DNA from: an uncultured Candidatus Peribacteria bacterium
GTDB lineage: Bacteria; Patescibacteriota; Gracilibacteria; Absconditabacterales; Absconditicoccaceae
DNA: 64,000 nucleotides
Assembly: GCA_964504915.1 (NCBI GenBank)
Contig: CAZDFH010000006.1
Span: 4,356-68,355, forward strand
Direction of reading: 5' to 3'
Both the position numbers and the translations under genes were made by a program. Positions 1,580 to 60,124 of the stretch are shown piece by piece. Within the stretch, counting starts at the first letter, position 1; every line of letters starts with the position of its first letter. The notes under the pieces were generated by a model, which was not told the DNA's origin, did not search any database, and saw only the letters and a program-made list of their open reading frames with translations.

Positions 1580-3538
1580 TTACATTCTTTCTACAAAAAT
1601 CATCCCTATGAGTTTCATGGCTTGTTGCAATGTCTCTAAGACTTTTTGTAGTAGGTCAATTCTTGTGATTTTTGTTGGTTCTTCATCTACTAATATTTTT
1701 GTATGAGCATAATAACTATTTACTAGTTGTGCTAGATCAAAACAATACTTCGCGATATAGTGTGGTGCTAAGTCATCTTTTGCTTTGAGAATGGTCTCGT
1801 CTAGTCCACTTATTTTTTTGATAAGTGCAAATTCATCGGCTTCTTGGAGTAAAGAATAATCGATTTTTGTCATATCCAACTTGCCTGCACTATCGATGAT
1901 ACTCTTCATTCTCGCTCAGGTATACAGGATATATGCTCAGGTCTCACCTTTCATATCCATTACCTCATCGAGATCAAAAACTATATCTTTAGTGATGTCT
2001 CCTCTGATCAAGAAAAATCTCAAAGCAGAAATTGCCATCGCTTCAGCGACCTTATCTAGTCGCACATCATCTTGTTCTGGATTTCTTTCTTTGGTCTCGA
2101 CATAGGCTTTCTTGTGAAGCATATCGAGCATATCATCTATTGTTACCGTTCGTCATTTTCTACTGGCAAAGGGTAATCTTTTTTCCAATTTTTCTTCATC
2201 GCTCAGATCGATCTTCATATTTAGCAATGTCTTTGGCGTCAAAAAAACGATACCATAGCCAAGTGGCAAATATTTTTTTTCTCCATGGACATGGCCGAGT
2301 AACTTGAGTGCTGAAGCCACAATTGTCTGAGGAGGAATCTGTCTATAATCTATGACAGTGATGGCTTCATCATATTTTCCAAAGCCATGTTTGTTTCATT
2401 TGCTTGTATCCGTACTTGTCGTATACATTCTGACGCCTCTGGGATCTTCTCGTGATTGTTCGTATCAGAAGTCCTTGTCCATGTAACCAAGCTTCCACAT
2501 CGCGAGAGCGATATCTTTGGCGACATAGGTGGCGAGACCATCTGACTTGATCATGATTTGATATTGTTTTTCTTCCTTTGCGTATTCTGGTAAACTAGAA
2601 AGATCAAGGATTCGACATCATTTCGCGTCGCCCTCATCGGCGTATTCCACGAATCATTTTTCCTTCAAGATATCCATCGCTGTGGCGAAAAATTTCAGAT
2701 GTAAGATATGTGTTTCCCAGGCAACGAGGTCGAAGTAGGCGCCCATCCTCCGGCAACTTTCCATTTGTCCATGTGTACAATCCTGGGTGTATTTCTGATG
2801 AAGTGTATTTATTTCTGGATCAGTATTTTCTTCTATCTTCAATAATGTTTCTGTCAATCTCTTTTGGAAAACAGCATCTTCTTCCAATTTTCTCATCTGC
2901 TCATAAATCTCTCCGCAGTAATGATCAAACTTTTTTTTTGTCGTCACGGGGATATCATAGTACATATGTCCGACAATATTGTAGCCGATATTCACTCCGC
3001 TATCATCTCCGTAATCACAGGTCGTAGGCTTATATCCAAGATGTTCATATATTCTCCTCATACTATCGCCGACACAGACATTTCTCGCTTGTCAGATATG
3101 AAGTGGCTTATTTGGATTAGCAGACATGTACTCTATGAGCAATTTGGTGCTTGTTGAGGGTTGAGAAGTTGAGAGTTGAGAGGTGAAAAAATCATTAATG
3201 AAATCAGTCTTTTTAATATGAGCGTTGAGAAATCAGCCGATGGCTTCAAATTTTTCAAAATGCTCTGACTTGAGCTTCTGAGCCATTTCTTGGGCTACTG
3301 CATTTGGTGATTTTTTCATCCATTTGGATAATGAAAAACAAGGAAATGCAAAATCTCCAGGAATATTTTCTGGTGGGGTCTCTATCATAAAGAAAAAAAT
3401 ATCGTCTATCGGCAACTTGGTCTCTTGGTTGAGAATCTCTGCGAAATACTGTTTGTATGTATCAAGTAGCATATCATCGTTTGCTAATATAAATCTTGTG
3501 GCTGAATATTTTTTTGTCTGGTTTGTTTTTTCTGTCAT
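1580..3538 (-). CDS. argS: Arginine--tRNA ligase
   Basis: Track ORFs 1580-1909, 1937-2131, 2654-3061 and 3233-3538 share one frame, and the gaps contain no TAA/TAG (checked). It has an Arg-tRNA-synthetase N-domain, the motif SANPNKPLHI[TGA=G]QARN (HIGH region), a DALR-type C-terminus ending in M, and a TAA stop. Confidence 0.9.
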
Positions 3539-6093: not shown

Positions 6094-6567
6094 ATGCTCG
6101 AAATAGAAAGAAAATTTCTCATTACCAAAATCCCTGAAAATATTTCCTCATTTCCTCATCATGAAATCTTACAATGATATTTTTTCAATGAATGAGAAAA
6201 ATTAGTGAGACTGAGAAAAAAAGGAAATCACTATTACCAGACGACGAAAAGCAGTGCAGGTTTGGTTAGACAACAAGAGGAGTCTGAGCTCTCTCCATCA
6301 GTCTTTGAAGAGGAGTGGAACAATGTCGAAGATCGACAATTACAAAAAACTCGTTACGAAATTCCCTGCGAGTGAAAGATTATTGAGTTAGATATCTACA
6401 AAGGAAAACTAGAATGATTGGTTCTCGCCGAGATAGAATTTACTTCTGAGCAAGAGGCGAATAATTTCACTGCGCCTGCTCGATTGGGTCAAGAATTGAC
6501 TGGCATGGCAGAAGCGGAAAATGCGTATTTGGCGAAATATGGAATACCGGACTCACTGCGTGAGTAG
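6094..6567 (+). CDS. CYTH-domain protein (CyaB/ThTPase family)
   Basis: It starts MLEIERKFLI (the EXEXK signature) and has four internal TGA. FTAPA[CGA]LGQELTG matches the conserved P.WLG.EVT segment if CGA is Trp. The stop is TAG. Confidence 0.8.
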
Positions 6568-6619
6568 TGTATAGTTTATAGTGTATAGTATATAGTATAT
6601 AGTATATAGTGTATAGTGT
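6565..6619. repeat. GTATAGT-word tandem repeat block beginning at the CYTH stop codon
   Basis: Sequence TAGTGTATAGTTTATAGTGTATAGTATATAGTATATAGTATATAGTGTATAGTG. The same 18-mer TAGTGTATAGTTTATAGT also overlaps the stop of the previous gene at 5652-5670. Confidence 0.85.
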
Positions 6620-6629
6620 TGGAGTTTTT

Positions 6630-7844
6630 TTAATTTTCAATTTTCAATTCTCAATTTTCAATCTTATCATATCCCAATTGTCCACAAGCGCCCTTGCCTT
6701 CTCTGCCCATACTTGCTCTGACGGTGACGGTAATTCATTCATTTTCCAAAATATCTTTAAATTTATACATCTGCGTTTTGCTACTTTCTTCGAGATCGAT
6801 CGCTGGATTCATATTGTATGCAATCAAGTTTACATGAGCCAATCTGCCTCTTAGTAACTTAGCTAATTCCTTGGCGAGCTCCGGCTTGTCAGTCACTCAC
6901 TTGATCATAATGTACTCGTAAAATATTCTATTATCGGTCGCTTTCACATAATCGTCGATCGTTTTCATCAGCTCATCGAGTGGATATTTTGCTGCAATCG
7001 GCATGAGTTGATTTCTCAATTCTTGATTTGGTGCATGCAATGAGATCGCTAATTTTACAGGAATATTGTCTTCAATTAATTTCTTAATTCATGGGATAAT
7101 CCCTGATGTTGATATTGTAATATGTCTTCTCGAGAGCGATAATCTGTCTTGTGGTAACATGAGTTCGATAGATTTTTTCATATTATCATAATTCAGCAAT
7201 GGCTCGCCCATTCACATAAAGACGACATTTCTCACACCATACAATGTGCCATCGTCTTTTTTTCCAAATTTATTCTTAATATAATTATTCGCATAGAGCA
7301 CTTGTCAGATAATTTCTTCTGCTGTGAGATTTCTCTTGAGACCTAATTTCCCCGTGACACAAAAGAGACAGTTCATGGGACATCATACCTGGCTAGATAT
7401 ACATAAGGTAATTCTATTTAGTTTTTTAGAGCCAGGATGTTGAAGGCTTTGCCTTGTTGAGGATTGAACGACTTCGTCGTGTTGAGAGTTGTCAGTATCA
7501 TCTTCATCAAAATCTTCAACCTCTTCCATCATATTTCCATTTTCATGTTGACGATTATCCCAGTGATAAAGTATAACCAGCTCGATCAGGTGTCCGTCCG
7601 TAGTTTGCAGTCAGATTTTGGTGCTGTCTTCTCCTTCTACGACATCCGTCACCTCAAAAGGAATAATACTGAATGCCTTCTCCAAGTCTTGCCTCATGTC
7701 CTTGGACAGCGTAGTCATCTCGGAGAACTCGATATTCTGATTTTTGTATATTTCAAAAAACACCTGCTTCACTCTAAAGGGTTGGAGCTTGTGTTCCTTA
7801 GCATATGATTGAAAAATATCTTCATTGAGAATAGATGGTTTCAT
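6630..7844 (-). CDS. rlmN: 23S rRNA/tRNA adenine-C2 methyltransferase, radical SAM
   Basis: The N-terminus matches RlmN (FRVKQVFFEIYK...EMTTLSKDMR). It contains CPMNCLFCVTG (CxxxCxxC) and MGMGEPLLNY, and ends ...ACGQLGY. There is an acidic low-complexity insertion (about 7440-7560). The stop is TAA at 6630-6632. Confidence 0.85.
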
Positions 7845-8490: not shown

Positions 8491-9729
8491 CTAGGCTGAC
8501 AACAGTGATTTTTTGTAAAATCGACACTGTTCGCCACCATTGTAAAATGGCGATTTTTTCCAATTGCCGGAAAGTTTTTTTTCTTCGAATTGTTCAAAGG
8601 AAGTAATGATCCCACCATGGAGCTTTGGATTTTTTTCGAATAGAGTAGCGAGTGTTTTATACAATCCCATGAGATCAATGATATTGTTTAGTCTGAGCCC
8701 ATATGGTGGATTGCTCACCATGGAGCCAATAAGTTCTGACTCATTGAGATACTCCTTAATATCTTTCACGGCGAATTGAATATATTTGTCTACTCATGCA
8801 TTCTTCGCATTTTCTTGAGCTATTGCTATCATCTCTGGATCGATGTCAGAAGCGATGATGGTATGTTCTTTATTTACAAAAGATGTCTGATGATTTCACT
8901 CTGATGGTGTCAGAAGATTTTTTTTGAGGTCTGCTAATATTGATTTGTCATATCGGTTTCGTGATTCAAATGCAAAATGTCTAAAGCTCCCGGGAGCGAT
9001 ATTCTTCGCAATCAGTGCCGCCTCTATCGCTATCGTTCCACTGCCACAGAAGACGTCATACAGTGGCTCACTAAATTTCCATCAAGACAATAAGACCAAT
9101 CATGCTGCTAGCGCTTCATTAATCGGCGCATCGCCGGTGGCTTTCTTGTATCATCTTTTGTGCAGAGATTCGCCTGTGGTATTTAATAAGATTGTACATT
9201 CATCATTGTCTATGTGGATGAAAATTTCCACTGGTTCCAACTTCGGATCTTCAAAGACCCTTTCTTCACTCTCAACTCTCAATGTGTCCACACTTCATTT
9301 CGTTGGCTTCGGAGCCACATGCAATGTGGCTTTACTTGCAGATTGGTGTGGGTCTCAATCCTCAACCTTCGCCAGAAGTTTTTTTACGATTGCTTTCTTA
9401 CAAATACTTTGTATCGTCGGTGTACTTGTGAGCTTGGATCTCTTGCTAGCAGCGGTGACGACGATGGGGTTGCCTTGGACGTACATCTTCCAGTCAATGC
9501 ATGAAACCAAGTCAAAGAGTCCATCAAAGTCAGAAACTTTTTTCTTCCCGAGCTCGAGAAAAAGTTTGTTTCAGACTCTACTTCGAAGGTTAATCTTCGC
9601 TATCGCAGTCTGGTCTCCCGTGAAACGGATCAGGGTTTGCTGATTACTTGTCACCTTGTATCCAGCGAGTTCTATTTCTTTTTTCAATACTGATTCCAGC
9701 CCTGCTGCGCAGGTGATAGCAAATTGCAT
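8491..9729 (-). CDS. THUMP-domain class I SAM-dependent methyltransferase (RlmL/YpsC-like)
   Basis: The frame is open over 8491-9729 (checked). Motifs are SLHKR[TGA]YK, APINEALAA, DVFCGSGTIAIEAA (SAM motif I) and SNPPYG (motif IV). It carries an extra segment of about 35 aa encoded by the repeat element at 9271-9367. Confidence 0.8.
9271..9367. repeat. Palindromic repeat element, copy A (inside the methyltransferase CDS, in frame)
   Basis: The architecture is CTCAACTCTCAA..CCACAC..GGCTTCGG-AGCCACATGCAATGTGGCT..GGTGTGGG..TCAATCCTCAACC, the same as copies at 19461-19555 and 60040-60124. Confidence 0.8.
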
Positions 9730-13522: not shown

Positions 13523-15043
13523 ATGAAAAAATCTGCATCAATTGCTTTCTTAAAGTATGCTGTACTTTTTGTTTTTGGTCTTTCTGCAGTATATTTTGCC
13601 TCTGCATATACCACTATCAATACTACACTCACTAATGCTACTCAGTTTATTCAAAAGATCATTTTGACAGATGATGGCAATCAAAGTGGAGTCACTGGTA
13701 TTGTGCTGGATGGATTAAGTGGAGATGTTACCATAAATCACAAACTAAGATTCTTGAATGCTTTGGATAATTGATCATATACTGCTGATATTATATGATG
13801 ACCATTAGGCTTACAAATGTTTGGTGGTAGCTGAAATATATGATTGACTGTGTGAAATGATGCTTATTGATTTGGATATCTTGGGTTACTACACGATACT
13901 AATGATGACTGAAATAGGTTTTATGTCATTGTTAGTACTACCTGAAATTCTATTGCTGGTAAAATATCTTTTCAACAAAATGCATGAGATCCCTCATCTT
14001 TGGATAGATATGTAATTTCTCATTCTTGAGAACACCATTGGTATACTTCAAATTCATGAGTATATGCTATAGAAAGAATGACTATCGTCGATAATGGAAA
14101 TGTTGGTATCTGAACTAGTACGCCAACAGATAATAAGTTGCAGATTGAATGAAATATTAGCTCACGAGGATTTATCGCAAGATGAATCTGAGTAAGTGCC
14201 AATGGAACTGGTGCTACAGCGATGGGAAATAGTACACAAGCAAATGGTGATTATTCTACAGCAATGGGAAATCAAACAGAAGCTAATTGAGATGTTTCGA
14301 CCACAATGTGAATGTGGACTCAAGCAGATGGCTTGGCTTCTTTGGCCATGGGTGATGCTACACATGCAAGTGGCGATTATTCTACAGCAATGGGATACGA
14401 TACCATAGCTAACTGACATTACTCTACAGCTTTATGAAAATATAATGTCTGATTGCCTAATAGTATATTTGAGATTGGAATTGGGAATACATGAAGTCGT
14501 TTGAATGCTATTACTGTCCTTGTCTCTGGAAATGTTGGTATCTGAAATAATAATCCACAATATCCGTTACATGTAGATGGTAGTGCTAAAGTTGATGGAA
14601 CCTTTTTTGCACATGAGGCACGTTTTGGAACATTACTTAATTTATGATATAATCTTAATGTAGATGGATGAGCGAATATTGACAGTTGGTTGTATGTGAC
14701 AGGTAGTAGAGTAGGTATTGGTACATCGACTCCAAGTCAAGCCTTGGAAGTAAATGGGAATATTCAGATGTCATTTCCTAGTACATGGATTGGACAAATT
14801 GCTAACCAAGTTTACTTTGCCTCTAGTGGTAAGGTTGGTATTGATACCGCATCACCAGATGCTCTGCTTACTGTAGAATGAGGTATTAGACCAATCAAAT
14901 TAACTTCTACTCCTTGTGGTAATACTGCGAATTATCCTGAATGAACAATGTTTTATAATAGTACTAGTCATTATTATTGTTTCTGTAATGGATCTGGTAG
15001 TACAGCTCGTAAGATTGCTGATGAAAGTGTAAGTTGTTTCTAG
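13523..15043 (+). CDS. Secreted adhesin or tail-fibre-like protein with YadA-head-like repeats
   Basis: Signal-like N-terminus MKKSASIAFLKYAVLFVFGLSAVYFASA. Frame 2 is open from 13523 to TAG at 15041, with more than 25 internal TGA (checked). It has repeats ...AMGNSTQANGDYSTAMGNQTEAN[G]D.. and four copies of G(N/K/R)VGIGTSTP..L.V.G. Confidence 0.65.
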
Positions 15044-15091
15044 GAGTGCATTTTGGACATCACACAATTTTATTTAATCAGCAACGATCAC

Positions 15092-17107
15092 ATGAAACAT
15101 ATCGTCAAAAAATATCTACAATGGATTATCTGACTAGGGATATTTCTCTGATGAGTAACTACAGTCTATATAGTAGTTGCCCAGGTCACTACAGAACTCC
15201 GTTGGAATGATCAACTCACTACGCAGTTTGGATCTACTATTTTTGTCTATCGTGCAGATATTGATTTCAAATATGGTGGTAATCAAAAAATTGGTACCTA
15301 TATGCCTAGGACTGCTGTAGCGCTTTCTAGTCCTGAGTCAGTGACTCTGAGCTGATGAGTTACTGGCCTCTGTTATAGTCAAATTAGGGGTATTTATTAT
15401 AATAATGAAAGATGAGAAAGAGCTCGACCTCTTGACCAAAATACTCTTACAGGTCTACAAGCTATAGATACTTCTTATAGTGGATTGCAATTGGCTGGTG
15501 GTTTTTTCACTAATTGTACTGGGCTTGGTGGGACTTCAGCAAATGTATATGGGCAGATTACTATGACATATCATACTACCGTGTATTATCTGATGGCTGG
15601 TACTACATATAATTTCCCAGCTAATATTCATGGATCTAGTTTATCTTGATCTTTGGAGTTTACTAATAATGTACTGAGCTGATATCTCTGGGATAGTTAT
15701 GGTGGTATCGGTGAAATACTAGGAAGTTCGTGATGCGTAGATGCTCGGAGTCCTGCTCCAGATACCGTATGTTCTGGGACAGTCTTTACTCAGACCAGTG
15801 TCTGTGGTAATACGCAAACGCTTACTTGAACTATGTTTTGTAATGGATGGACTTGAAAAATTATCAATCCACTTCATCTGAATGGTTTAGATATCTTTAC
15901 TGGATCTGTACAAATTTCGTGATTCACATTCTCAGGTTTTGTCTTCCATTCTACATGAGGTTTCCACGTTATCTCTACAGGATCCGTATACAACTCTCTG
16001 ATTATCAATGCAAGTGGACTTACCATTCGTGCTCTATCAGGTACTTGGGATGGTACATTGATTCCACCGACCGCCATCACTGGTGGAGATACTAGAAATG
16101 CTGTGTTTGGTGAATCAGGACTTCCTGTACAGACATGATGATCTACAACTAGGGCCATTCTTCTGACTGTCCAAGCTGGGGCGACTACAGACTCTCTCGT
16201 CGCGAGTGGATCATTATTTAGAGTAAATTTTGTTGTAAGCGCTGGGATAGCAGGGAATACATTAAAGATATATAGATCTGAAGATGGTACTACTTGGACT
16301 CCTAATACACCTGATCTTACTTGTATCTTAGATAGCGATCTAGTGTGTAGTTTTGATACAGATCACTTTTCTTACTTTGCTCCTATCAAGGAAACCACGG
16401 TAAGTAGTAGTTCCTACTGAGGTAGTAATTCTCTTGTTCGTGATGATTGTGTAGTACATACTACTCCTAGTTTATCTTGATCTAATGCTGATGGGATAGA
16501 TTATTCTCCAAGCTATTATGACCATACGTGTGAGTGACCAAAGAGTACTCTACAACGTACAGGTACTTCACTATCATGTTCGATATATACTGCTGAATTA
16601 AACAGAGCTTATTTATTTGCACGTAGTTTTGATATCACTACTATAGATCAATGTAAAAATGTGAATATCAAAGGTCATCTTATTAGAAAAGATCTTGCAA
16701 AAATGATGGTTAACTTTGCTGAAAATGTCTTTGGCAGAACTGGAGTCCTTGTAGATGATGATAGATGTACTTCTTTTGATGATATCTCTCAGGAAACTTC
16801 ATCCACTAAAGCATATATCCAAAAAGCGTGTGCCTATGGGTTGATGTGACTGGAGCCAGATGGTGTTACTCCTTCAGCTACCTTTAGTCCCAATGGTAAG
16901 ATCAATAGAGCTCAGTTTGGTACTATACTTTCTAGATTCATCTGGTGATCACTTAATAATACAGATGATAAAACTCTCTATTATTCCAAACATTTAAAGG
17001 CACTTCAGAGCATAGGTATTATGAAAAAAATCGATACTCCTACGATGCAAGAATTGAGATGATGGGTCATGCTTACCATGCAAAGAATTTATACAAAAAC
17101 GAAATAA
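15092..17107 (+). CDS. Large secreted surface protein with C-terminal SLH-like repeats
   Basis: Frame 2 is open from 15092 to 17107 (checked), with an N-terminal TM/signal segment. The C-terminus FDDISQETSSTKAYIQKACAYGLM[G]LEPDG..FSPNGKINRAQFGTILSRF resembles S-layer-homology motifs. Confidence 0.6.
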
Positions 17108-17993: not shown

Positions 17994-18001
17994 GATGTAT
18001 T

Positions 18002-18095
18002 GGGTAAAATGGGTAAAATGAGATATGGGTAAAATGAGTTTGTCTGTTACCTATTACCTATTAACTATTAACTGTTATCTGTTACCTGTTATCTC
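18002..18095. repeat. Word-repeat block (GGGTAAAAT x3, then GTTACCT/TTAACTA/GTTATCT words)
   Basis: Read directly from the sequence. The block spans the junction of two minus-strand genes and overlaps the last codons and stop of the gene at 18075-18599. Confidence 0.85.
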
Positions 18096-18599
18096 TACGG
18101 TATACTTATATTCTTTGATCTTCTTCCCTTGTGCTTTTGCTTTGTCTATCGTGTCTTGAGTTCACTTGCTTGCGTTGACATGAAAGGCTATAATTTCATC
18201 AGATGCATTCACGATGTCGGTATTGCGGGCATAATAGGTTTCTTCATTACATTCGATTGAATGAGTGTTTTCTATAATTGCTTGAGGATTTTTATGTTGT
18301 AATTCTTTGAGCTGGTGTGTAAGTGTGTCTGCTTGGTCTAGAGTGATTACTCATTCTTCTGCTCTTTGATGCATATGCTTGTCGTATATTTCTACGGTGG
18401 TTGGCAGAAATATTTTGATCTGCTTCCCTGTCGGATCTAAGGTCATAGCAGTGTCTGTAGCAATGAAATCTACACCTAATGCTCCGCCTGTTATGATCCC
18501 ATCACCGTTTTGTATAATAGCAGAAATTTCTGATCTCACCTCACGTGTGACCTCTTCGTTGACGGTTCTCCGACTTCCTGTGATTCAGATTCGTTTCAT
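18075..18599 (-). CDS. SLOG/DprA-like Rossmann-fold protein (GGAxGxD motif)
   Basis: MKRI[G]ITGSRR...IITGGALGVDFIATD. Two internal TGA and a TAA stop. Confidence 0.55.
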
Positions 18600-18625
18600 A
18601 TTTTTTTTAATATTCTGAAAATGTT

Positions 18626-18943
18626 TTACTCATTCTCTGATCATGCGTGGCCTCATTTTTTTATTCTCTTTTCATATTTCTCTATTACCATATCCAATGA
18701 TTTCGTGAGGTCGATATCGTAAAAATTTGCTACCGTTATTAATGAATAGAATGCATCACCGAGTTCCATTCTAATTTCTTCTCTAAACTCTGGCTCCTTG
18801 GTGCCATACCCTGACATCTTGCTTATCTCCTTGGCTACTTCACCTATTTCATCTACGAGATCAAGCATCCTGTATTCGACAGGATTGTTCATATTATTTT
18901 CATCCATAAATTTTTTTACCTTGAGTTGGAAATCACTGGTCAT
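18626..18943 (-). CDS. MazG-like all-alpha nucleotide pyrophosphohydrolase
   Basis: LDLVDEIGEVAKEI ... ELGDAFYSLITVANFYDIDL (the EExxE/D-type pairs of the MazG fold). The track stop at 18653 is TGA, and the true TAA is at 18626. Confidence 0.6.
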
Positions 18944-18970
18944 GATTATGTATTAAGGATAAAGATTATG

Positions 18971-19435
18971 TTACTTTTTTAGAAGTTTGGAATAGCTTTT
19001 TTCCGTAACAGTGTACTTATCTTCTCATTCCTTAGATACTAAATATACTTTCAGCTTTAATAATTTCCAGCCATATGTCATTTTCTTGATTTTATTTCTA
19101 AACGTATTTTCCCAATCAGCAGGTATAGCAATTGCATAGAAACGAGCCTTTTTCGGGTTATTTCCCTCTATATCCATGCGAGACAAAATTTGTCATAGTA
19201 GTGTATAAAATGCATTATTTTTTACTTGTTCAGGATGTTTTCAACTTCATTTAGCCTCAATAAACAATCTTTTTCTCCACTTGCTATGTCGTGCGATAAT
19301 ATCACAACCATGCTCTCATTTTTTCTTTTCTTCTTTCTCTATAGATCGATTTTTATCATTGATGAGGTATTTTCTTACGCTCTTTTCCACTTCATGCTCT
19401 GTTAGAGATGTTATTGTTCCTTTGATTTTTGGCAT
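18971..19435 (-). CDS. PD-(D/E)xK (restriction-endonuclease-fold) protein
   Basis: GCDIIA..(x14)..LFIEAKG fits the D...(D/E)xK core. It has several internal TGA, two CGA, and a TAA stop. Confidence 0.45.
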
Positions 19436-19460
19436 AAAGTCACTTAGAAATTAAAAACCT

Positions 19461-19555
19461 CTCAACTCTCAACATGCCCACATATTTTAATTGGCTACGG
19501 AGACGCATGCAATGCGTCTTTACAGGAACATTGGTGTGGGCTTCAACTCTCAACC
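19461..19555. repeat. Palindromic repeat element, copy B (intergenic)
   Basis: CTCAACTCTCAAC-ATGCCCACA..GGCTACGG-AGACGCATGCAATGCGTCT..TGGTGTGGGC-TTCAACTCTCAACC. Direct CTCAAC-word flanks surround nested inverted repeats. Confidence 0.85.
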
Positions 19556-19556
19556 T

Positions 19557-20867
19557 TTATTCTATAATTCTTTTCTGCAAATATTTCGCAGCGTAAAATA
19601 ATATCATTCATTCGAGACCAATATACAGTAAGACCAAGAAGAAAATTAGCTCCCCGGGGAGAGTAGTATTTCGTAATAAAATAATATTTACTACAAGTGC
19701 TGCGACGGTCGCTACCAATCGATAGGTGTATTCGATAGGCGTGAAAATTTTGGCCAGCAGAGGAATCTTGTGTGCATAGAAAATCAGTGTTGCACTGACA
19801 ATATTTCGTAAAATGGTCCGACTTACTATCGCTCCTACATCACCATTAAAGTAAGAGAATAAGCTGATGTAGATAGCAAAATTGATTACCAAGAAGACGA
19901 CAAGATTTTGGATGATGCTGTTGTATCAAATCTTTTTTAGTAATAAGACGTTCATGACAAAGATGATGATAATCAGCCGATAGAAGATATGTGAAATATT
20001 GGCAAAGCCAGCAATATTGACGACGTAATAATAGATCAATGCAATGATGAGAATAATGTTCATCAGCTCTAGAAGCTTCTTTGCCAAACTTGGCATATCA
20101 AAGACGAAGTGATATATCTTCTGCTGAAACTCTGAGGAGAAACGCTTCTTGGCTGTCGTAATTCTTTCCCCTGCCAATATTCTTCTGACCGAAATATTCG
20201 CTTTCTTGTCTTCGCTGAGTGGTTTATGTTTCAGCACATTGAATATCCAGAAATAGACTCCTGTGAGTAATAAACTATTTAGTGTCAGTGCTACATAGAA
20301 ATTATTTACTCGATGAATAATGATGAGAATGATCGTTCACAATGTCCGTATTCCTAGTTTATATCGCAGATAGTCTTCCATATTTTCTTTAAGTCCGACG
20401 ACGAAGATGAGGAAACCCATGACTCCACACTGCATGACTCGGAGCATACTAAACGTATTCCAAAATCAGATACCTCCTTCAAAGACCGTCATGACGACGA
20501 TAAGAAATATACAGGAGAGATAGTAGCCGAGTTGAAATACCATCTTACCATCTTCATATTTGATGACATACGAACCTAGTCGAAGGAATAAATTTATTCC
20601 AATCAGTCCTAGACATGTCGATACTAAGCTCATTCAGAAAAAATTAAAGATGCCGACAAATCCTGCGAGAATAATAATCCATGCGATGAAGAGACTATAT
20701 CTCTGAAGTAAGTCAGAAGATTTTATTTTGATATTTTGAGTCACTCCGTAATATGCGAACAATATAGCCAAGATGATGATAGGCAAAAATCCTACAAACC
20801 ATAGGCCGATAGCATAGAAGTAGACCATAAATCAGATAATTCAGATGCATAGTGATAATAATGCCAT
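19557..20867 (-). CDS. Polytopic membrane protein (436 aa), function unknown
   Basis: Track ORFs 19608-19892, 19926-20237 and 20634-20828 are in the same frame, and the gaps are free of TAA/TAG (checked). There are at least 10 hydrophobic segments. The track stop at 19608 is TGA, and the real TAA is at 19557. Confidence 0.6.
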
Positions 20868-20870
20868 ATT

Positions 20871-20912
20871 GCAGTTAACGGGTTAAAGAGTTAATGAGTT
20901 AACGAGTTATGT
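20871..20912. repeat. GAGTTAA-word repeat block
   Basis: GCAGTTAACGGGTTAAAGAGTTAATGAGTTAACGAGTTATG, immediately upstream of the membrane-protein start. Confidence 0.75.
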
Positions 20913-22822: not shown

Positions 22823-23587
22823 ATGAAAAAATTTCTTCGGACACTGGTGATTCTCGTTTTACTTGCCTGCGCTTTTTTGTTCGTCAAGAAAAACACGACA
22901 CGATTTACCACAGCTCCTGTGACCGTAGTCACTACAGGAATACAGACTTCCGTGACTGAGTCAGATATATTTGTTACTCCAAATTTTTGTACACCAAGAC
23001 ACACAAGACAAGAATATCTTGCCGCTCAAGCTACTGATTGCCAACAAAATAGTTCTTGTGATCAATGGCAAAAAGACATATCAGGTATCGTCTTCGCTGA
23101 TCGATGGTGTGAGCAATCTGGCTTTACTATCAAAGTAATTGATCTTAGCAATGCGACAGGATATCAGGGAATTATCGATCAATCACTCCAAGAAATACAG
23201 ACATTAGGTACACTTCCACATGTGCTCTATCATAATCTTTTGGAGACAGAGATAGGTTTCGACGCTGGATTCCAAACTACAACCTTTGAACTTACGGGAC
23301 AAAGTGTGACCGGTGCTGACACGTCTAGAATGTTTATTAGCATGGAGTGAGAAGCATCTACACCAGTATTCAATCTTATCGTCAAAAAATGAAATTTCAT
23401 CATAGCGATCCAAAATATATTGGAAAAAAATATGGAGCTCGCTCCGATGTTGTCTAGCTTTCAAGCACAATCGCTTCCGACCGCACAAGCTGTCATAGCA
23501 TATTATCAAGCAAATATTCTTACTAACTCCACATTTCAAAATGTGGTAACAAATGCAGTGACTACAACATTAGCACGATTTAAATAA
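22823..23587 (+). CDS. Secreted protein, leader-sharing paralog family member
   Basis: Leader MKKFL[CGG]TLVILVLLACAFLFVKKNTT[CGA]F. The frame is open to TAA at 23585 (checked). Confidence 0.55.
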
Positions 23588-23607
23588 TTTTATTTTTTTC
23601 TCTGCTT

Positions 23608-24315
23608 ATGAAAAAGCTCCTCCGAAAATTAATTATTCTGATCGTCATTGTCTGTATTTACTTGCTGATCAAAAAAAATACTACTCGACTTGGTCTGCCT
23701 ACCCAGATAGGAACTATTCAGACATGAGTTGTTGCCACATGAATTGATTTGACCAACTGTGTCAGCTATTTCGATGGTTGTAATAATTGCTCAGTCAAAG
23801 ATGGGAAAGCAGATGCTTGTACATTGATGTATTGCGAGAAGCCAAGTGAACCAAAGTGTTTACAAGAAAAAACAGGGGAAAATATAGTATCAGCAATCGA
23901 AGATTTTTCATTCCAAATCCCTAAGTGACGAACAATAACCAAGACAACAAGTAATCCTTGTGCTGATTATGACTGTTCTATACCTGTATTACGTATTGCC
24001 ACAAATATAAAAGATAATTCATGATATGTAGTATATGCTTTACTAAAAATAGATGAGGTTAGTAAAAATAAAGTACAGGCTACCGACAAGATACTAATAA
24101 ATCAACCTGACAAAAAATTAGTCCAGTTGGAATGAGTATCATGATTTGGTTCCTTTATGCTTGATATCAAAGGGAAATATTATCTCATAGAAATCGCTGA
24201 TTTTACATCAGAGCAACCAAAGCCCGCTGGCTATAATGATCTTCGACAGCCCTATAATGTGACAGAAAAAGATATAAACAATCTCATTACAATCATAAAA
24301 AGTATATCTAAATAA
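23608..24315 (+). CDS. Secreted protein, leader-sharing paralog with a CxxC-rich module
   Basis: Leader MKKLL[CGA]KLIILIVIVCIYLLIKKNTT[CGA]LG, followed by DLTNCVSYFDGCNNCSVKDGKADACTLMYCEKPSEPKC. The frame was checked to TAA at 24313. Confidence 0.6.
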
Positions 24316-24337
24316 TTTTTAATCCTTCATATCTCTT

Positions 24338-24982
24338 ATGAAAAAACTTCTTCGGAAAATAATTATTCTGATCATCATTGTCTGTATATACTTGCTGATC
24401 AAAAAAAATACTACCCGACTTGGTATGCCTACACAGACAGGAAATGTCCAAACAGGAATCGTTTCTACGGGGATTGATTTGACGAACTGTGTCAGCTATT
24501 TCGACGGTTGTAACAATTGTTCCGTCAAAGATGGGAAAGTAGATGCTTGTACCAAGATGTATTGCGAGAAACCAAGTGAGCCAAAGTGTTCGCAATATGC
24601 TACTGGGAGTGAAACTACGGGATTAGTGAAAAACTCATCATGAGTTAATGATTTCTGATTCATTGAATGATCTCTAAGTTACCCTTCAGAATGAATCCCG
24701 TGAGATATGGAAGTGTGTGCAAGAAATATTTCAACTAAAGAAATTGTCTGTACAAAAGATCACATTGAAAATAATAAATATACATATCATATATGATACA
24801 AGATTAAAGTTCCTGTTGGAATATATAATGTCTATGCTAAGGAATGAAAACTCGAAGCATATTATTCAGAATTTGTAACTTGCTGATTGAAGGCGGAATG
24901 CCCATCGCATAATCTCATACCAGTTTCTGTTTCTGAAAATATGACAGTATCTAATATTGACCCTAGTGATTGGTACAAATAA
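24338..24982 (+). CDS. Secreted protein, near-identical N-terminal half to 23608-24315
   Basis: The first 265 nt or so are roughly 85-90% identical to 23608-23870 by eye, and then the sequences diverge. The frame was checked to TAA at 24980. Confidence 0.6.
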
Positions 24983-25024
24983 AATATTAATATTTATGTT
25001 TTCTTTTATTCTTTTTCTTTCTTC

Positions 25025-25738
25025 ATGAAAAAGCTTCTTCGAATCATCTGAATTCTTATTGTCCTCATCGCAGCATTTTTCGTAGTGAAGGCACAGACTA
25101 CACGATTTGGTTCGACGCAGAAAGCTACAACAACCTTAGCAAATCCAGCTTCGGTGTATTGTCAGCAACAAAGTGGAACACTAGAAATCGTCACTGATTT
25201 GAGTGGATGACAGTCAGGGATCTGTCATTTAACTGATGGTACGACATGTGATGAATGGGCATATTTTAGAGGAGAATGTCCTACGACGGGGATTTCTAGT
25301 GGAGAAAATAGTTGATTTCTAACATATACAGATAATGTGTATGGGATTCAATTACAATATCCAGATACATGGGAAATTTATCAATGACAACCACCATTTG
25401 AATTACCACTTCTTACATGGATGAGGTTTCAAGATAAGACTTGAGATGGCATAATTAGGGTAGCGATTAGCATTTATAGTTGAACATATTCCTCATTTGT
25501 AGATTTTCAAAGTTGGTATAAAGCTTCTATAAAAGACACAATGACATCAGCTCCAATACAAATAAAAATAGCTGGGTTGGATGCAATAGAGACAATGCAG
25601 ACTGATGGTATCGACTCTGTAAGTCCTTATATTTATATTTCAAAAGGCAACAATACAGTTGTATTCACCACAACTAACGGATCAGAAGGAAAAAAACTAC
25701 TATTGGACACACTAGATTCATTAAAATTCACTGATTAG
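25025..25738 (+). CDS. Secreted protein, paralog leader plus a DUF333-like (putative hemolysin) module
   Basis: Leader MKKLL[CGA]II[G]ILIV.., followed by ANPASVYCQQQSGTLEI...GICHLTDGTTCDEWAYFRGEC. Confidence 0.55.
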
Positions 25739-36860: not shown

Positions 36861-36892
36861 AGTGAAGAGTGAAAAGTTAAAAGTGAAAAGTG
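36861..36892. repeat. GTGAAAAG-word repeat block
   Basis: AGTGAAGAGTGAAAAGTTAAAAGTGAAAAGTG, directly after the stop at 36855. A TTAACTATTAG/TTTTTAGTTATTCAC block follows at 36924-36954. Confidence 0.75.
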
Positions 36893-40596: not shown

Positions 40597-40660
40597 AGAC
40601 GTAAGTATCAAGACGTAAGTATCAAGACAGAAGTCTTATGTCTTACGTCTCATGTCTTAT
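40597..40660. repeat. AGACGTAAGTATCA x2 plus inverted copies
   Basis: A tandem 14-mer at 40597-40624 is followed by AGACAGAAGTCT and TGTCTTACGTCT. The block overlaps the stop codon of the kinase-like gene. Confidence 0.8.
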
Positions 40661-41214
40661 TTCTCGATTTGTTTCATAATCTTATCGACCTGTTGGCGGA
40701 GCTCGTCGATAGTTCCATTATTTTCAATGACATAGTCAGCTAGATCTATACATGCTTGCAGATTCTGTTTATTTGGATCGTCGGAATTCATTTCTCTTTC
40801 TTCATTCTCTATGAATGTCGTATAGGGAACATGATCAGTTTCGCTTCCTCTTGCTCATATCCTTTCATATCTTATCCCTGGATCAGCTTCTACGGCGAAG
40901 AGATAAAATGGTCATTTCTCTTTAAATGTTTTGATTTCACCTACAGTTCTTACGCTTTCGATAACTGTGTTTTTCCCTGTCTCTTCTGCTTTGGTATATA
41001 AGTCACTCGCTATAAATCCAGGGCCATATTTTTCGCGAAGCTCGTTACCCATGATGACCATACTATCTCTGTTGTTTGGCATGCCTTTCTGAAGCATCTT
41101 TTCTATCAGATATGCTCTGACGGAGAAATGCTGGAATCCATATTTTTCTACTAAATATTCTACGACTGTCCCTTTCCCTGCGCCGAGGGTTCAAGTAATT
41201 CCAATAATAAGCAT
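40657..41214 (-). CDS. P-loop nucleoside/nucleotide kinase family protein
   Basis: MLIIGIT[G]TLGAGKGT Walker A, 185 aa. It looks like a dephospho-CoA or dNMP kinase; the substrate is unknown. Confidence 0.6.
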
Positions 41215-44230: not shown

Positions 44231-44315
44231 CGGAAGGCACAGGATTCGAACCTGCGGTACCTTGCAGTACGCACCGTTTCCAACGGTGTGCTTTAGACCA
44301 CTCAGCCAACCTTCC
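44231..44315 (-). tRNA. tRNA-Ser (anticodon GGA), class II with long variable arm
   Basis: Reverse complement GGAAGGTTGGCTGAGTGGTCTAAAGCACACCGTTGGAAACGGTGCGTACTGCAAGGTACCGCAGGTTCGAATCCTGTGCCTTCCG. The anticodon stem is CACCG/CGGTG with loop TTGGAAA, and the T-arm is CAGGTTCGAATCCTG. No CCA is encoded. Confidence 0.9.
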
Positions 44316-44326
44316 TTATGGGTATT

Positions 44327-44461
44327 GGAACGATAGATTTTGGAACGATAGATTTTGGAACGATAGATTTTGGAACGATAGGACTTAGAACGATAGGTTT
44401 TGGAACGATAGATTTTGGAACGATAGATTTTGGAACGATAGATTTTGGAACGATAGATTAT
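44327..44461. repeat. Tandem repeat, 15-bp unit GGAACGATAGATTTT x9
   Basis: Nine head-to-tail units, two of them variant (GGAACGATAGGACTT and AGAACGATAGGTTTT). The array lies upstream of the tRNA on its strand and touches the stop of the next gene. Confidence 0.95.
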
Positions 44462-44823
44462 GGTTTTGCGTGTGTTTTTTTGTATCTTATTAATGATGAT
44501 AGCATTTTCAAAATAATAGTAATTTCTTCGTCTAATGTATCTGACTTATTTTTTGTGATAAATCATTGTCTTTGTGCAATCAATAAATGTGTTTGAACTT
44601 CTGCTGCCGATCATTTAGCTATATAGAGAAAATTTATATTCTCTTTATTTGTATTTCTTTGATCTCATTCTGCTATATTTGCAGCGATAGAATTAGATGC
44701 TCTCTTAATTTGGTCTATAAGTGCAAACTCCATTTTTGGAAAAGTTTTGGTAATTTCATACATTGCATCCACAAAGTTCATTGCTCTCTTTCGTACTTCT
44801 AGTTTTTGGTAACTTTTGTCCAT
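44458..44823 (-). CDS. Four-helix-bundle protein (23S rRNA intervening-sequence protein family; Avd-like fold)
   Basis: QIKRASNSIAANIAE[G]... FLYIAK[G]SAAEVQTHL matches the Qi.rAa.Si..NIAEG ... iA.GS..E..t.l signature. Confidence 0.75.
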
Positions 44824-47204: not shown

Positions 47205-47711
47205 CTATACTATTCTTTTGGCTTCTTGTAATAATGCTTTTGTTAACGATAGGTTTCGTGCTCTCATTGTTTTATGCCATTTTCTGAATTTTAGAAATTG
47301 TTCTCGATTTAACTCAATCATATCTTTTAACTGAAAATCTTTATCAATTCTTACAATAATTGCATATTCGAACTTTTTTTCTGGTATTTCTATGTCTTCT
47401 AAATTTCAACAACCATAAAATACTCATGTTGTACTTCACGGCTCGGTGATTGTTTTAATGCTATATCTTTCTCACTTTCTACTTATTGCATCGATGTTTT
47501 GTGTCCCTTCTGGAGCTGCCTGCAGATTCGGCAATGAAGTATTTTTATTATAAGTTGCTATTGTTAGAAATTCTCCCCTTTCTCATACTATATTGTTTGT
47601 TCTTACCAACCCCCTGGCTTTCAATTTTTTTTGACAGTCTGCAAAACATGTCCATAACTCTTCATCGGTTAGTTCTTCTATATACGCCTCTATTTCATCT
47701 ACTTTATTCAT
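47205..47711 (-). CDS. Hypothetical protein (168 aa)
   Basis: ATG at 47711 to TAG at 47205, with four internal TGA and two CGA. No confident family assignment. Confidence 0.4.
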
Positions 47712-50700: not shown

Positions 50701-51351
50701 TGAGCCACAGCGTTCACACTTTCCATCATCGAGATCTTCATTTGCCAATCCTGTCATACAATGAGGACATCGATTTATCGGCTTATAATCTACGAACGCC
50801 AAACGTTGCGAATTAATAAATTGCTCTTTTGTTAATCAGTCTGGAACTTTCAACTTTCAACTTTCAACTTTCAACTCGAATTTTTTTACAGGCTCAGCCT
50901 TATGTGTTTCATCGTCATAATAGTGATTAAATAACTGTAAAAAAATTCGTTGTGTTCGTTTGAAGTATTCTGGATCGGCTGTGTTTACTGATCTGCTTCG
51001 ATCATATGACATGCCAAACATTTTGAGTTGCTGTATAAACTTTTCTACGTTTTGCTTAGCGACAGTTTGTGGCTTCATTTTATTATCGATAGCATATTGT
51101 TCAGTTCATAGACCAAATGTATCAAATCCCATAGGATGAAGCACGTTAAATCATTCCAACATCTTCTTCCTCGCAAGCGTATCACTTGCGATATATCATT
51201 TGGGATGTCAGACGTGAAGTGCGGCTCCGCTAGGATAGGGAAACATATCCAAAACGTAAAATTTTGGTTTGCTCGTATTTTCTTTGACTTTGTAGAGGTC
51301 AGTTTCTTTTCGCTTTTTCTGTCGCTTTTCTCAGATTTCTTTTAAGTTCAT
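47716..51351 (-). CDS. leuS: Leucine--tRNA ligase with a large in-frame ASCH-like plus serine-hydrolase insertion
   Basis: The frame was verified free of TAA/TAG over all 3636 nt. LeuRS motifs are [10 protein letters not shown][G]HPKGY, IN[CGA]CPHC, TTRPDT (CP1 editing), SRQRY[CGA]GEP, YIGGAEH and KMSK. The insertion spans roughly 48900-49905 (see findings). Confidence 0.88.
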
Positions 51352-54956: not shown

Positions 54957-54960
54957 GAAT

Positions 54961-55020
54961 CGAGTAAAAAGGGTAAAATGGGTAAAAAGGGTGAAACGAG
55001 TGAAATGGGTGATGGTAAAT
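54961..55020. repeat. GGGTAAAA/GGGTGAAA-word repeat block
   Basis: CGAGTAAAAAGGGTAAAATGGGTAAAAAGGGTGAAACGAGTGAAATGGGTGATGGTAAAT, directly after the ftsK stop. It shares words with the blocks at 3929-3978 and 18002-18035. Confidence 0.85.
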
Positions 55021-55055
55021 TTCTAATTTCTATTTTAAATTTTTAGATTTCTGAA

Positions 55056-59987: not shown

Positions 59988-60039
59988 AATTTTCTTATGG
60001 CAGATAAACATCTTTATATCAAATTTACTATTTTCAATC

Positions 60040-60124
60040 TTCAACATACACACCATCATATTGATTAGCTACGGTAGACGCATGCAATGCGTCTCTACAT
60101 CGCTTGTGGTGTGGATTTTAAACC
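60040..60124. repeat. Palindromic repeat element, copy C
   Basis: TTCAACATACACACC..TAGCTACGG-TAGACGCATGCAATGCGTCTCTAC..TGTGGTGTGG..TTAAACC. It aligns with copy B along its length. Confidence 0.75.

What the first reader, a model, noticed from the sequence alone, without database searches (positions are those of the whole stretch)
19461..19555. Dispersed palindromic element family of about 95 nt with compensatory base changes in its central hairpin
Three copies (9271-9367, 19461-19555, 60040-60124) share the same architecture:
- CTCAAC-word direct flanks.
- An outer inverted repeat (CCCACA.../...TGTGGG).
- A GGCTACGG box.
- A central hairpin with a GCA loop.

The hairpin reads AGACGCAT-GCA-ATGCGTCT in copies B and C, but AGCCACAT-GCA-ATGTGGCT in copy A. 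That is two substitutions on each arm that preserve pairing, which suggests selection on structure (RNA or cruciform) rather than simple drift. All three copies are in the same orientation on the plus strand. Copy C overlaps the upstream region of the RNHCP gene.
Basis: seen in the sequence. Interest (0 to 1): 0.65.

Follow-up and report, generated by a model that had tools for sequence, protein, structure and literature searches.

The report
Small palindromic DNA repeat in SR1 bacteria
A real but rare ~75-base nested-hairpin DNA repeat occurs three times in this stretch of an uncultured SR1 (Absconditabacteria) genome, once in frame inside an RNA methyltransferase gene. It looks like an ordinary small mobile or selfish palindromic repeat rather than a new kind of RNA gene.

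Summary
There are exactly three copies in the window, with cores at 9283-9355, 19471-19543 and 60047-60118, all on the + strand.

The window comes from a bacterium that reads TGA as glycine (code 25, SR1/Absconditabacteria).

Public data yielded only eight distinct copies, from about four SR1 lineages. Rfam, phage records, plasmid records and IMG/VR gave nothing.

The core has four parts:
- an outer inverted repeat, CCCACAC/GTGTGGG;
- the invariant boxes GCTWCGGAG and CTYTAC;
- a perfect 8-bp hairpin;
- a setting inside short GTTGARR tandem arrays.

Copy A lies in frame in a disordered loop of a THUMP RNA methyltransferase. In other SR1 species the same loop carries two unrelated palindromic families, bare arrays, or nothing.

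The two-pair compensatory switch is real, but it is a single two-allele difference. Each allele occurs in two lineages, and the alleles do not track the rest of the element. One copy has an inverted loop, which is a mark of DNA template switching.

All six independent loci place the element antisense to the neighbouring genes.

Best reading: a low-copy REP/MITE-like palindromic DNA repeat. Mobility is inferred, and no transposase was found. A cis-acting RNA role is not excluded.

The parts
19471..19543 (+). Copy B core (focal copy). Outer arms are GCCCACA at 19476-19482 and TGTGGGC at 19535-19541. Box GGCTACGG is at 19493-19500. The hairpin AGACGCAT-GCA-ATGCGTCT is at 19501-19519, followed by TTAC.
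   Evidence: 82.8 bits, E 4e-21.
19456..19473 (-). GTTGAGA-type short tandem array on the gene-sense side downstream of core B. It ends 20 nt before the ATG of ORF 18971-19435(-).
19540..19555 (-). GTTGAGA/GTTGAAG array on the other side of core B. It starts 1 nt after the stop codon of the conserved membrane-protein gene 19557-20867(-). The ortholog locus L053 has a (GTTGRRAN)x4 array at this same place but no core.
9283..9355 (+). Copy A core. Outer arms are TCCACAC at 9287-9293 and GTGTGGG at 9346-9352. Box GGCTTCGG is at 9305-9312. The hairpin AGCCACAT-GCA-ATGTGGCT is at 9313-9331.
   Evidence: 77.6 bits.
9267..9367 (-). Copy A with its two flanking arrays, translated in frame from the - strand as residues ~121-154 (VEDGDPHQSASKATLHVAPKPTKGSVDTLRVESE) of the THUMP/UPF0020 RNA methyltransferase. 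This stretch contains two in-frame TGA (Gly) codons.
8491..9729 (-). Host gene of copy A, a class I SAM-dependent RNA methyltransferase (RlmL_1st, THUMP, UPF0020). It is 412 aa, against 371 aa for most orthologs.
60047..60118 (+). Copy C core. Outer arms are CACACCA at 60049-60055 and TGGTGTG at 60107-60113. Box AGCTACGG is at 60067-60074, with an extra T at 60075. The hairpin AGACGCAT-GCA-ATGCGTCT is at 60076-60094.
   Evidence: 77.5 bits.
60030..60045 (-). Degenerate GTTGAAG/ATTGAAA array on the gene-sense downstream side of core C, next to the RNHCP start region.

Best explanation
This is a low-copy, lineage-restricted, non-coding palindromic DNA repeat of SR1/Absconditabacteria. It is of the same general kind as REP, MITE and RPE elements.

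Shown:
- The unit is a ~75-nt nested palindrome: a 6-9 bp outer inverted repeat, two invariant boxes, and a perfect 8-bp central stem with a 3-nt loop.
- It is usually embedded in short GTTGARR tandem arrays.
- Copies sit at unrelated loci within one genome and at other loci in related genomes.
- Copies are present or absent at orthologous sites.
- One copy is read through in frame in a disordered protein loop.
- All independent loci have the same orientation relative to the surrounding genes.

Inferred:
- Copies arise and disappear by DNA-level insertion and deletion at the array sites. Palindromes flanked by direct repeats are easily gained and lost there.
- The element is probably recognised as a folded single strand by a trans-acting enzyme encoded elsewhere in the genome.
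- The stem stays perfectly symmetrical through replication template switching and short-tract exchange between copies, and possibly because that enzyme requires a hairpin.
- Any effect on the co-transcribed mRNA is secondary.
- Reading the element and the arrays in frame is possible only because TGA codes for glycine in this organism.
For: Family and anatomy:
- Alignments and profile or covariance-model searches define the family.

Dispersal:
- There are 3 loci in the window.
- A fourth copy (L001) comes from the same metagenome.
- L007 and L017 come from another TGA-sense lineage, at different loci.

Presence or absence at orthologous sites:
- The methyltransferase loop has the core in the window, L008 and L010. 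It has the array only in L011 and nothing in L012.
- The site just after the membrane-protein stop codon has array-core-array in the window, array only in L053 and neither in L011.
- The L007 spacer carries a copy, while the spacer between 99%-identical flanking genes in L017 is entirely different.

The same loop is an insertion hot spot:
- Two unrelated nested palindromes occupy the identical position, in frame, in L055 and L056.
- The peptide encoded by copy A lies in a segment with pLDDT below 50 and no secondary structure, between a confident helix and a confident strand.
- The Pfam THUMP match breaks exactly there.

DNA-level palindrome dynamics:
- There are two stem alleles that are discordant with the flanks.
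- L010 has an inverted loop.
- Template switching is known to homogenise inverted-repeat arms and invert their spacers (PMC8794818, PMC8604942).

Not a known RNA:
- No Rfam match even at E<=10.

Not the local terminator:
- A canonical stem plus T-run terminator and a promoter-like site lie upstream of copy C.
Against: - No target-site duplication or consistent element ends could be defined.
- No transposase, integrase or HUH/RAYT gene was seen among the window ORFs examined (translations read). The rest of the genome was not available.
- Copy number is very low: 8 distinct copies from all collections searched.
- A six-frame peptide query against 5.8 billion proteins found the element in frame only in this one methyltransferase. 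There is therefore no sign of a burst of transposition.
- The unpaired boxes GCTWCGGAG and CTYTAC are invariant.
- Orientation is the same in 6 of 6 independent loci (two-sided p about 0.03).
- The last two points would also fit a functional cis-element.
Confidence: 0.5

Rival explanations
1. It is a cis-acting structured RNA element. It would be co-transcribed within leaders and intercistronic spacers and recognised by a protein or nuclease, for example as an mRNA processing or stability site or a regulator binding site. Dispersal would be secondary.
For: - All six independent loci have the same orientation relative to the flanking genes.
- Copies lie 20-125 nt upstream of a start codon, or within ~60 nt downstream of a stop codon.
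- The stem is kept paired, with two double-sided changes.
- The boxes flanking the stem are invariant in 8 of 8 copies.
- In copy A the stem is preserved although the encoded amino acids change (CRDALHAS against SKATLHVA).
Against: - There is no Rfam relative.
- The fold z-scores are only -0.7 to -2.5, and neither strand folds better overall.
- The G.T wobbles in the helices fall on the strand antisense to the mRNAs, so the mRNA form would carry A.C mismatches.
- The neighbouring genes are functionally unrelated: grpE, RNHCP, a murE-downstream gene, a nuclease-like ORF, and the interior of a methyltransferase.
- Orthologous spacers in close relatives lack the element.
- Only one covariation event is seen.
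Confidence: 0.25
2. It is a DNA recombination or attachment site at which gene cassettes or whole spacers are exchanged. It would be folded as single-stranded DNA and cut by a site-specific recombinase, which is analogous to integron attC sites or to the ends of IS200/IS605 and REP-RAYT substrates.
For: - Copy B sits exactly at the junction between a conserved gene and a three-gene block that L053 and L011 lack. The block comprises a 154-aa ORF, a MazG-like gene and a SLOG/ShosA-like gene.
- The element-bearing spacer of L007 is replaced wholesale in a 99%-identical relative.
- The orientation is strand-specific.
- On the gene-sense strand a GTAG or GTAA tetranucleotide directly precedes the stem, as in REP sequences (the REP feature is from my own knowledge).
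Against: - The flanking words are direct repeats, not the inverted R''/R' core sites of attC.
- The other end of the three-gene block has no copy.
- No integrase, Y1 transposase or other recombinase is in the window.
- There is only one such junction case.
- Copies A, C and L001 show no cassette boundary.
Confidence: 0.12
3. It is an inert relic with no mobility and no function. A few ancient segmental duplicates would persist by chance, with the stem kept symmetrical purely by template switching.
For: - Copy number is very low.
- No mobilising gene was found.
- The template-switch signatures are present (loop inversion in L010, two symmetrical stem alleles).
Against: - Copies at unrelated loci keep 60-84% identity outside the stem and invariant boxes, while the adjacent spacers turn over completely between 99%-identical strains.
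- The family persists across lineages whose orthologous proteins are only ~65-80% identical.
Confidence: 0.1

Closest known systems
Rickettsia palindromic elements (RPE)
   Same: Both are short palindromic repeats found in intergenic DNA and also inserted in frame into protein-coding genes, where the extra peptide sits in a tolerated surface segment (review PMC10969869). Here copy A adds ~33 residues in a loop predicted to be disordered.
   Different: RPEs are ~150 bp and were reported 44 times in unrelated genes of one Rickettsia genome (PMC10969869). In-frame copies of this element were found in only one gene family among 5.8 billion proteins. The host phylum differs, and here the reading frame is open only because TGA codes for Gly. 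Sequence similarity to RPEs was not tested directly.
REP / REPIN elements mobilised by RAYT (Y1 HUH) transposases
   Same: Both are mostly extragenic hairpin repeats with a conserved GTAG or GTAA directly 5' of the stem on one strand, a strand-specific orientation and no target-site duplication. The REP features are from my own knowledge.
   Different: REPs occur in tens to hundreds of copies and are tied to a RAYT gene. Here there are 3 copies per 64 kb and at most a handful per metagenome, and no RAYT was seen. The hairpin is nested inside a second inverted repeat and flanked by 7-nt tandem arrays.
Bacterial MITEs (Correia/NEMIS, ERIC, RUP, BOX)
   Same: All are small non-coding repeats with terminal-like inverted repeats. 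They are co-transcribed with neighbouring genes and are sometimes intragenic (PMC10969869).
   Different: No target-site duplication was found, no partner IS shares the ends, and the copy number is far lower.
Integron attC sites
   Same: Both are imperfect palindromes of 60-140 nt at gene-cassette boundaries, acting as a folded single strand. One copy (B) sits at a cassette-like junction.
   Different: The defining inverted core sites (RYYYAAC ... GTTRRRY) are absent. The flanks here are direct repeats, no IntI is present, and most copies are not at cassette junctions.
Hairpins created and maintained by replication template switching
   Same: Symmetrical multi-base changes on both arms and inversion of the loop are the signatures described in PMC8794818 and PMC8604942. 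Both are seen here (A-type against B-type stems; the L010 loop).
   Different: That is a mutational process, not an element family. It explains how the stem is maintained but not how the element became dispersed.

Membership tests
Any Rfam RNA family | Match to a curated covariance model | tested here: not met
   Only tRNA-Ser reaches gathering score in the window. No match at E<=10 covers the element copies in L001-L003, L005 or L007.
MITE | Terminal inverted repeats | tested here: inconclusive
   A 6-9 bp inverted repeat, CCCACAC(C)/(G)GTGTGGG, bounds the core in all 8 copies. The true element ends are undefined, because arrays outside the repeat are shared by several copies.
MITE | Target-site duplication flanking each copy | tested here: not met
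   No consistent direct duplication is present. The direct 'CTCAAC' flanks have the same sequence in A, B and L008, and they occur at core-less sites. They are therefore not per-insertion duplications.
MITE | Partner autonomous IS or transposase with matching ends | not testable with these tools
   None was seen in the 64 kb. The whole genome was not available. Phage and plasmid BLAST searches found nothing.
REP/REPIN-RAYT | Imperfect palindrome with a conserved 5' GTAG | tested here: inconclusive
   On the gene-sense strand the stem is preceded by GTAG in 5 copies and by GTAA in 3. The stem is perfect rather than imperfect.
REP/REPIN-RAYT | High copy number, and a RAYT gene flanked by REPs | tested here: not met
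   There are three copies in 64 kb and none in 53 kb of related loci apart from the orthologous gene copy. No Y1_Tnp-like ORF was seen in the window. The genome-wide status could not be tested.
RPE-like in-frame selfish DNA | In-frame insertion into a protein-coding gene without breaking the fold | tested here: met
   The ORF is uninterrupted through copy A. The insertion splits the THUMP match at residue 123. Orthologs lack the insertion. The inserted segment has pLDDT below 50 between confident secondary-structure elements.
RPE-like in-frame selfish DNA | Recurrent insertion into many unrelated genes | tested here: not met
   A composite six-frame peptide query found only the three orthologous methyltransferases (P0001, P0003, P0005) among 5.8 billion proteins.
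Integron attC | Inverted core sites R'' (RYYYAAC) and R' (GTTRRRY) that pair with each other | tested here: not met
   The flanking words are in direct, not inverted, orientation: TCTCAAC on both sides of A and B.
Structured RNA supported by covariation | Several independent compensatory changes across helices | tested here: inconclusive
   Two pairs change on both sides, but only in 2 of 8 copies, always together, and as one allele. The outer helix shows no covariation. Only 8 sequences are available.

The most novel reading that the evidence does not exclude
The hairpin together with its GTTGARR arrays could be the recognition site of an undescribed single-strand-specific recombination system. 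Such a system would swap intergenic spacers and small gene cassettes in SR1/Absconditabacteria genomes.
Probability: 0.08. Interest if true: 0.7.

Novelty: new member of a known kind. Interest (0 to 1): 0.35.

Why it matters
Small dispersed palindromic repeats are common in bacteria. To my knowledge, and in the literature searched, none has been described for the TGA-recoded candidate phyla.

This case documents three things:
- one such family;
- a protein loop that has independently accepted at least three different palindromic families;
- the fact that in-frame read-through of the element and of its GTTGARR arrays depends on TGA being a sense codon.

It is also a worked example that a 'compensatory' stem difference between a few repeat copies is weak evidence for RNA-level selection.

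The practical consequence is modest. It helps annotation of CPR genomes, and it provides a marker for strain-level spacer turnover.

Tried and rejected
- **Rfam.** Searches at gathering score and at E<=10 found no family.
- **Strict hairpin-agnostic pattern.** GTDB genomes gave 0 matches. JGI metagenomes gave 7 matches: 5 real, of which 3 are the window itself.
- **Relaxed pattern.** GTDB genomes gave 36 matches, in line with my rough estimate of about 40 chance hits. Only L017 was real. IMG/VR gave 0.
- **BLAST of copy B** against phage and plasmid records found no match.
- **Composite six-frame peptide search** for other in-frame insertions found only the orthologous methyltransferases. RPE-like proliferation is rejected.
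- **More copies in held DNA.** nhmmer and covariance-model searches of the window and of about 53 kb of related loci found none.
- **Extending the source contig** through P0001 returned only short contigs of the same organism from other samples.
- **Two orthologous loci** (P0123, P0124) had no DNA on file.
- **Intrinsic terminator idea.** Rejected: there is no T-run, and a canonical terminator lies elsewhere in the same spacer.
- **Promoter idea for the arrays.** No sigma-70-like site was found in the B spacer.
- **Considered from memory and rejected on sequence grounds:** CIRCE, dif/Xer, attC, DGR template/variable repeats, self-cleaving ribozymes, and BHB introns.
- **Strand assignment from fold energies.** Inconclusive: the summed energies are -215 kcal/mol for one strand and -210 for the other.
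- **Pfam with DNA references** failed, because table 11 reads TGA as a stop codon.

Full report
**Organism and genetic code**

With the standard bacterial code the longest ORF in the window is 320 codons. With TGA read as a sense codon it is 1226 codons, and about 89% of the window is coding. The leucyl-tRNA synthetase (47716-51351, - strand) has TGA at the glycine of the HVGH motif, so TGA = Gly, which is code 25. The closest named homologs are from 'candidate division SR1' / Absconditabacterales. G+C content is about 37%. All gene statements below use code 25.

**The observation**

- An nhmmer profile finds exactly three copies.
- A covariance model built from eight distinct copies and run without filters also finds exactly three. 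They lie at 19471-19543, 9283-9355 and 60047-60118, all on the + strand, scoring 78-83 bits. The next hit has E>1.
- The stems are as described. B and C read AGACGCAT-GCA-ATGCGTCT, and A reads AGCCACAT-GCA-ATGTGGCT.

Three corrections are needed:
- The box is RGCTWCGG, not GGCTACGG.
- C has an extra T and only one degenerate flank.
- C overlaps only the N-terminal extension of the longest RNHCP ORF. The Pfam domain starts at residue 29.

**Family size and distribution**

I used a pattern that fixes only the boxes and the outer arm and leaves six stem pairs and the loop free.
- It matched nothing in one genome per GTDB species.
- In JGI metagenomes it matched five real records. Three are the window's own copies. 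One is a further copy from the same metagenome (L001). One comes from another metagenome (L007).
- A looser version gave 36 hits in GTDB genomes, in line with my rough estimate of about 40 chance hits. Only L017 is real; it comes from a TGA-sense MAG.
- IMG/VR, phage records and plasmid records gave nothing.
- Rfam has no match, even at E<=10.

Together with the two orthologous gene copies described below, eight distinct copies are known.

**Anatomy**

- The outer inverted repeat is CCCACAC(C)/(G)GTGTGGG, 6-9 bp.
- A left internal segment ends in the invariant GCTWCGGAG.
- The central stem is a perfect 8 bp with a 3-nt loop.
- An invariant CTYTAC follows, then about 9 nt, then the right arm.
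- On the gene-sense strand the core is followed in 7 of 8 copies by two or more units of GTTGARR, and sometimes preceded by them as well.
They are not specific to the element. RTTGRRN arrays occur 12 times in the window against about 2 expected, for example (GTTGAGA)x4.7 at 3153-3186.
- Tandem repeats of 7-9 nt fill most spacers and several genes.

**Copy A is inside a gene**

Copy A lies in 8491-9729 (- strand), a RlmL_1st-THUMP-UPF0020 RNA methyltransferase.
- The Pfam THUMP match stops at residue 123, which is profile position 62 of 84.
- The protein has 412 residues, against 371 for most orthologs.
- The element, read as its reverse complement, encodes residues ~121-154 in frame and includes two TGA codons.
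- An AlphaFold2 model gives pLDDT below 50 and no secondary structure for residues 122-155. This segment lies between a confident helix (103-119) and a confident strand (167-174).

At the same alignment position:
- L008 and L010 carry homologous copies.
- L011 carries only (GTTGAAC)x4.
- L012 and most orthologs carry nothing.
- L055 and L056 carry two unrelated nested palindromes, with termini GTCATTGCGA.../...TCGCAATGAC and CGTCATTTCGA.../...TCGAAATGA. Both are in frame.

The loop is therefore a repeated landing or tolerance site for palindromic DNA.

A composite query of all open frames of the element against 5.8 billion proteins returned only these three methyltransferases. The element has not spread through genes in the way RPEs have (PMC10969869).

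**Other loci**

- **Copy B.** It starts 1 nt after the stop codon of a conserved membrane-protein gene and ends 26 nt before the next ATG. In L053 (80% protein identity) the same position holds (GTTGRRAN)x4 without a core. In L011 it holds neither. The window also has three extra genes between B and the conserved small lipoprotein gene that follows directly in L053 and L011. These are a 154-aa ORF, a MazG-like gene and a SLOG/ShosA-like gene.
- **Copy C.** It lies between a promoter-like site (60296-60269, - strand) and the RNHCP start. A canonical terminator sits at 60448-60423. The element is therefore not the terminator.
- **L001.** It is 47 nt upstream of grpE.
- **L007 and L017.** They share 99%-identical flanking genes, but the ~160-nt spacer is completely different, and only L007 has a copy there. 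L017 has its own copy one gene further on.

**The stem**

- Across eight distinct copies, 79 of 80 pair cells are paired.
- Two pairs change on both sides. They change only in A and L017, always together.
- In the non-hairpin columns A is nearest its positional orthologs L008 (0.72), B (0.69) and L010 (0.68), all of which have the other stem allele.
- L017 is nearest L007 (0.84), which also has the other allele. A against L017 scores 0.58.
- The two stem alleles therefore predate, or move between, the lineages. This is one switch, not repeated compensation.
- Four random substitutions would preserve all Watson-Crick pairs with probability 0.0017. Pairing is thus maintained by something.
- That something need not be RNA-level selection. 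Template switching during replication homogenises inverted-repeat arms and inverts their spacers (PMC8794818, PMC8604942).
- L010 has exactly such an inverted loop (GCA to TGC) plus one substitution.
- Fold energies do not favour either strand.
- The G.T wobbles fall on the strand antisense to the mRNAs. This argues weakly against an mRNA-borne structure, but it could reflect compositional skew.

**Interpretation**

The data fit a low-copy REP/MITE-like palindromic DNA repeat best. It is gained and lost at array-bearing sites, is occasionally absorbed into a tolerant protein loop, and has its stem symmetry maintained at the DNA level.

Several points remain open:
- Mobility is inferred from presence or absence at orthologous sites, not observed.
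- No target-site duplication was found.
- No mobilising enzyme was found. Window ORFs were checked, and the remaining translations were read.
- The invariant unpaired boxes and the uniform orientation keep a cis-acting RNA or protein-binding role alive.
- The junction position of copy B and the spacer swap keep a recombination-site role possible, though weakly.

**Verdict**

The feature is real. It is a new family of a known kind, of modest interest.

Noticed in passing
whole window; e.g. 47716-51351 (-): TGA is a sense codon, and it codes for glycine. The LeuRS HVGH motif is written HV-TGA-H. The window therefore comes from a code-25 bacterium (SR1/Absconditabacteria), and table-11 ORF lists are misleading here.
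   Followed up: yes
window 3153-3186, 6565-6662, 18001-18094, 20873-20909, 36861-36892, 40597-40664, 48178-48287, 50845-50876, 53345-53386, 54957-55052: Tandem repeats of 7-9 nt fill most intergenic spacers. They also lie in frame inside genes, for example (AACTTTC)x4.6 and 8/17-nt arrays inside LeuRS, and (GTTGAGA)x4.7 inside the ArgRS-like gene. A 7-nt unit containing TGA passes through all three frames, so such arrays can stay open only in a genome where TGA is a sense codon.
   Followed up: partly
window 44325-44463: A 15-nt unit (TTGGAACGATAGATT) is repeated 9.3 times. The array directly abuts tRNA-Ser(GGA) at 44231-44315 (-) and lies next to a 23S_rRNA_IVP / bAvd-like gene at 44458-44823 (-).
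   Followed up: no
window 47716-51351 (-): The leucyl-tRNA synthetase has 1211 aa. A serine-hydrolase (alpha/beta hydrolase) domain is inserted at residues ~624-804, between the catalytic halves (Pfam PF06821, E 6e-10).
   Followed up: partly
window 47205-47711 (-): A 168-aa protein matches type II methyl-directed restriction enzymes (PADLOC mREase_II, E 1e-57). It lies immediately downstream of LeuRS.
   Followed up: no
window 18075-19435 (-): A three-gene block lies between a conserved membrane-protein gene and a conserved small lipoprotein gene. It comprises a 154-aa ORF with a D...EAK motif, a MazG-like gene and a SLOG/DprA-like gene with weak ShosA similarity. The block is absent from the orthologous loci L053 and L011. 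The region between the membrane gene and dnaK differs in every relative examined.
   Followed up: partly
L055 1177-2397; L056 345-1529: In other SR1 species the same THUMP loop of the RNA methyltransferase carries two other nested palindromic elements in frame. Their termini are GTCATTGCGA.../...TCGCAATGAC (fold energy -49 kcal/mol) and CGTCATTTCGA.../...TCGAAATGA. Neither family occurs in the window.
   Followed up: partly
L007 1170-1330 vs L017 238-350: Two contigs have 99%-identical murE 3' ends and 99%-identical downstream Cys-rich protein genes, yet the ~160-nt spacer between them is completely unrelated. Spacers in these genomes are replaced wholesale.
   Followed up: partly
window 6630-7844 (-): The RlmN homolog carries an acidic, low-complexity insertion of roughly 45 residues (…EEVEDFDEDDTDNSQHDE…) ahead of the radical-SAM core.
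   Followed up: no
window 22823-25738 (+): Four tandem paralogous lipoprotein-like genes share a near-identical N-terminal region. This includes a 261-nt direct repeat at 23605 and 24335 with 86% identity.
   Followed up: no
window 13523-17107 (+): Two large secreted or surface proteins lie next to dnaK. One has YadA-head repeats, seen as 42-nt DNA repeats at 14177-14438. The other has an SLH domain.
   Followed up: no
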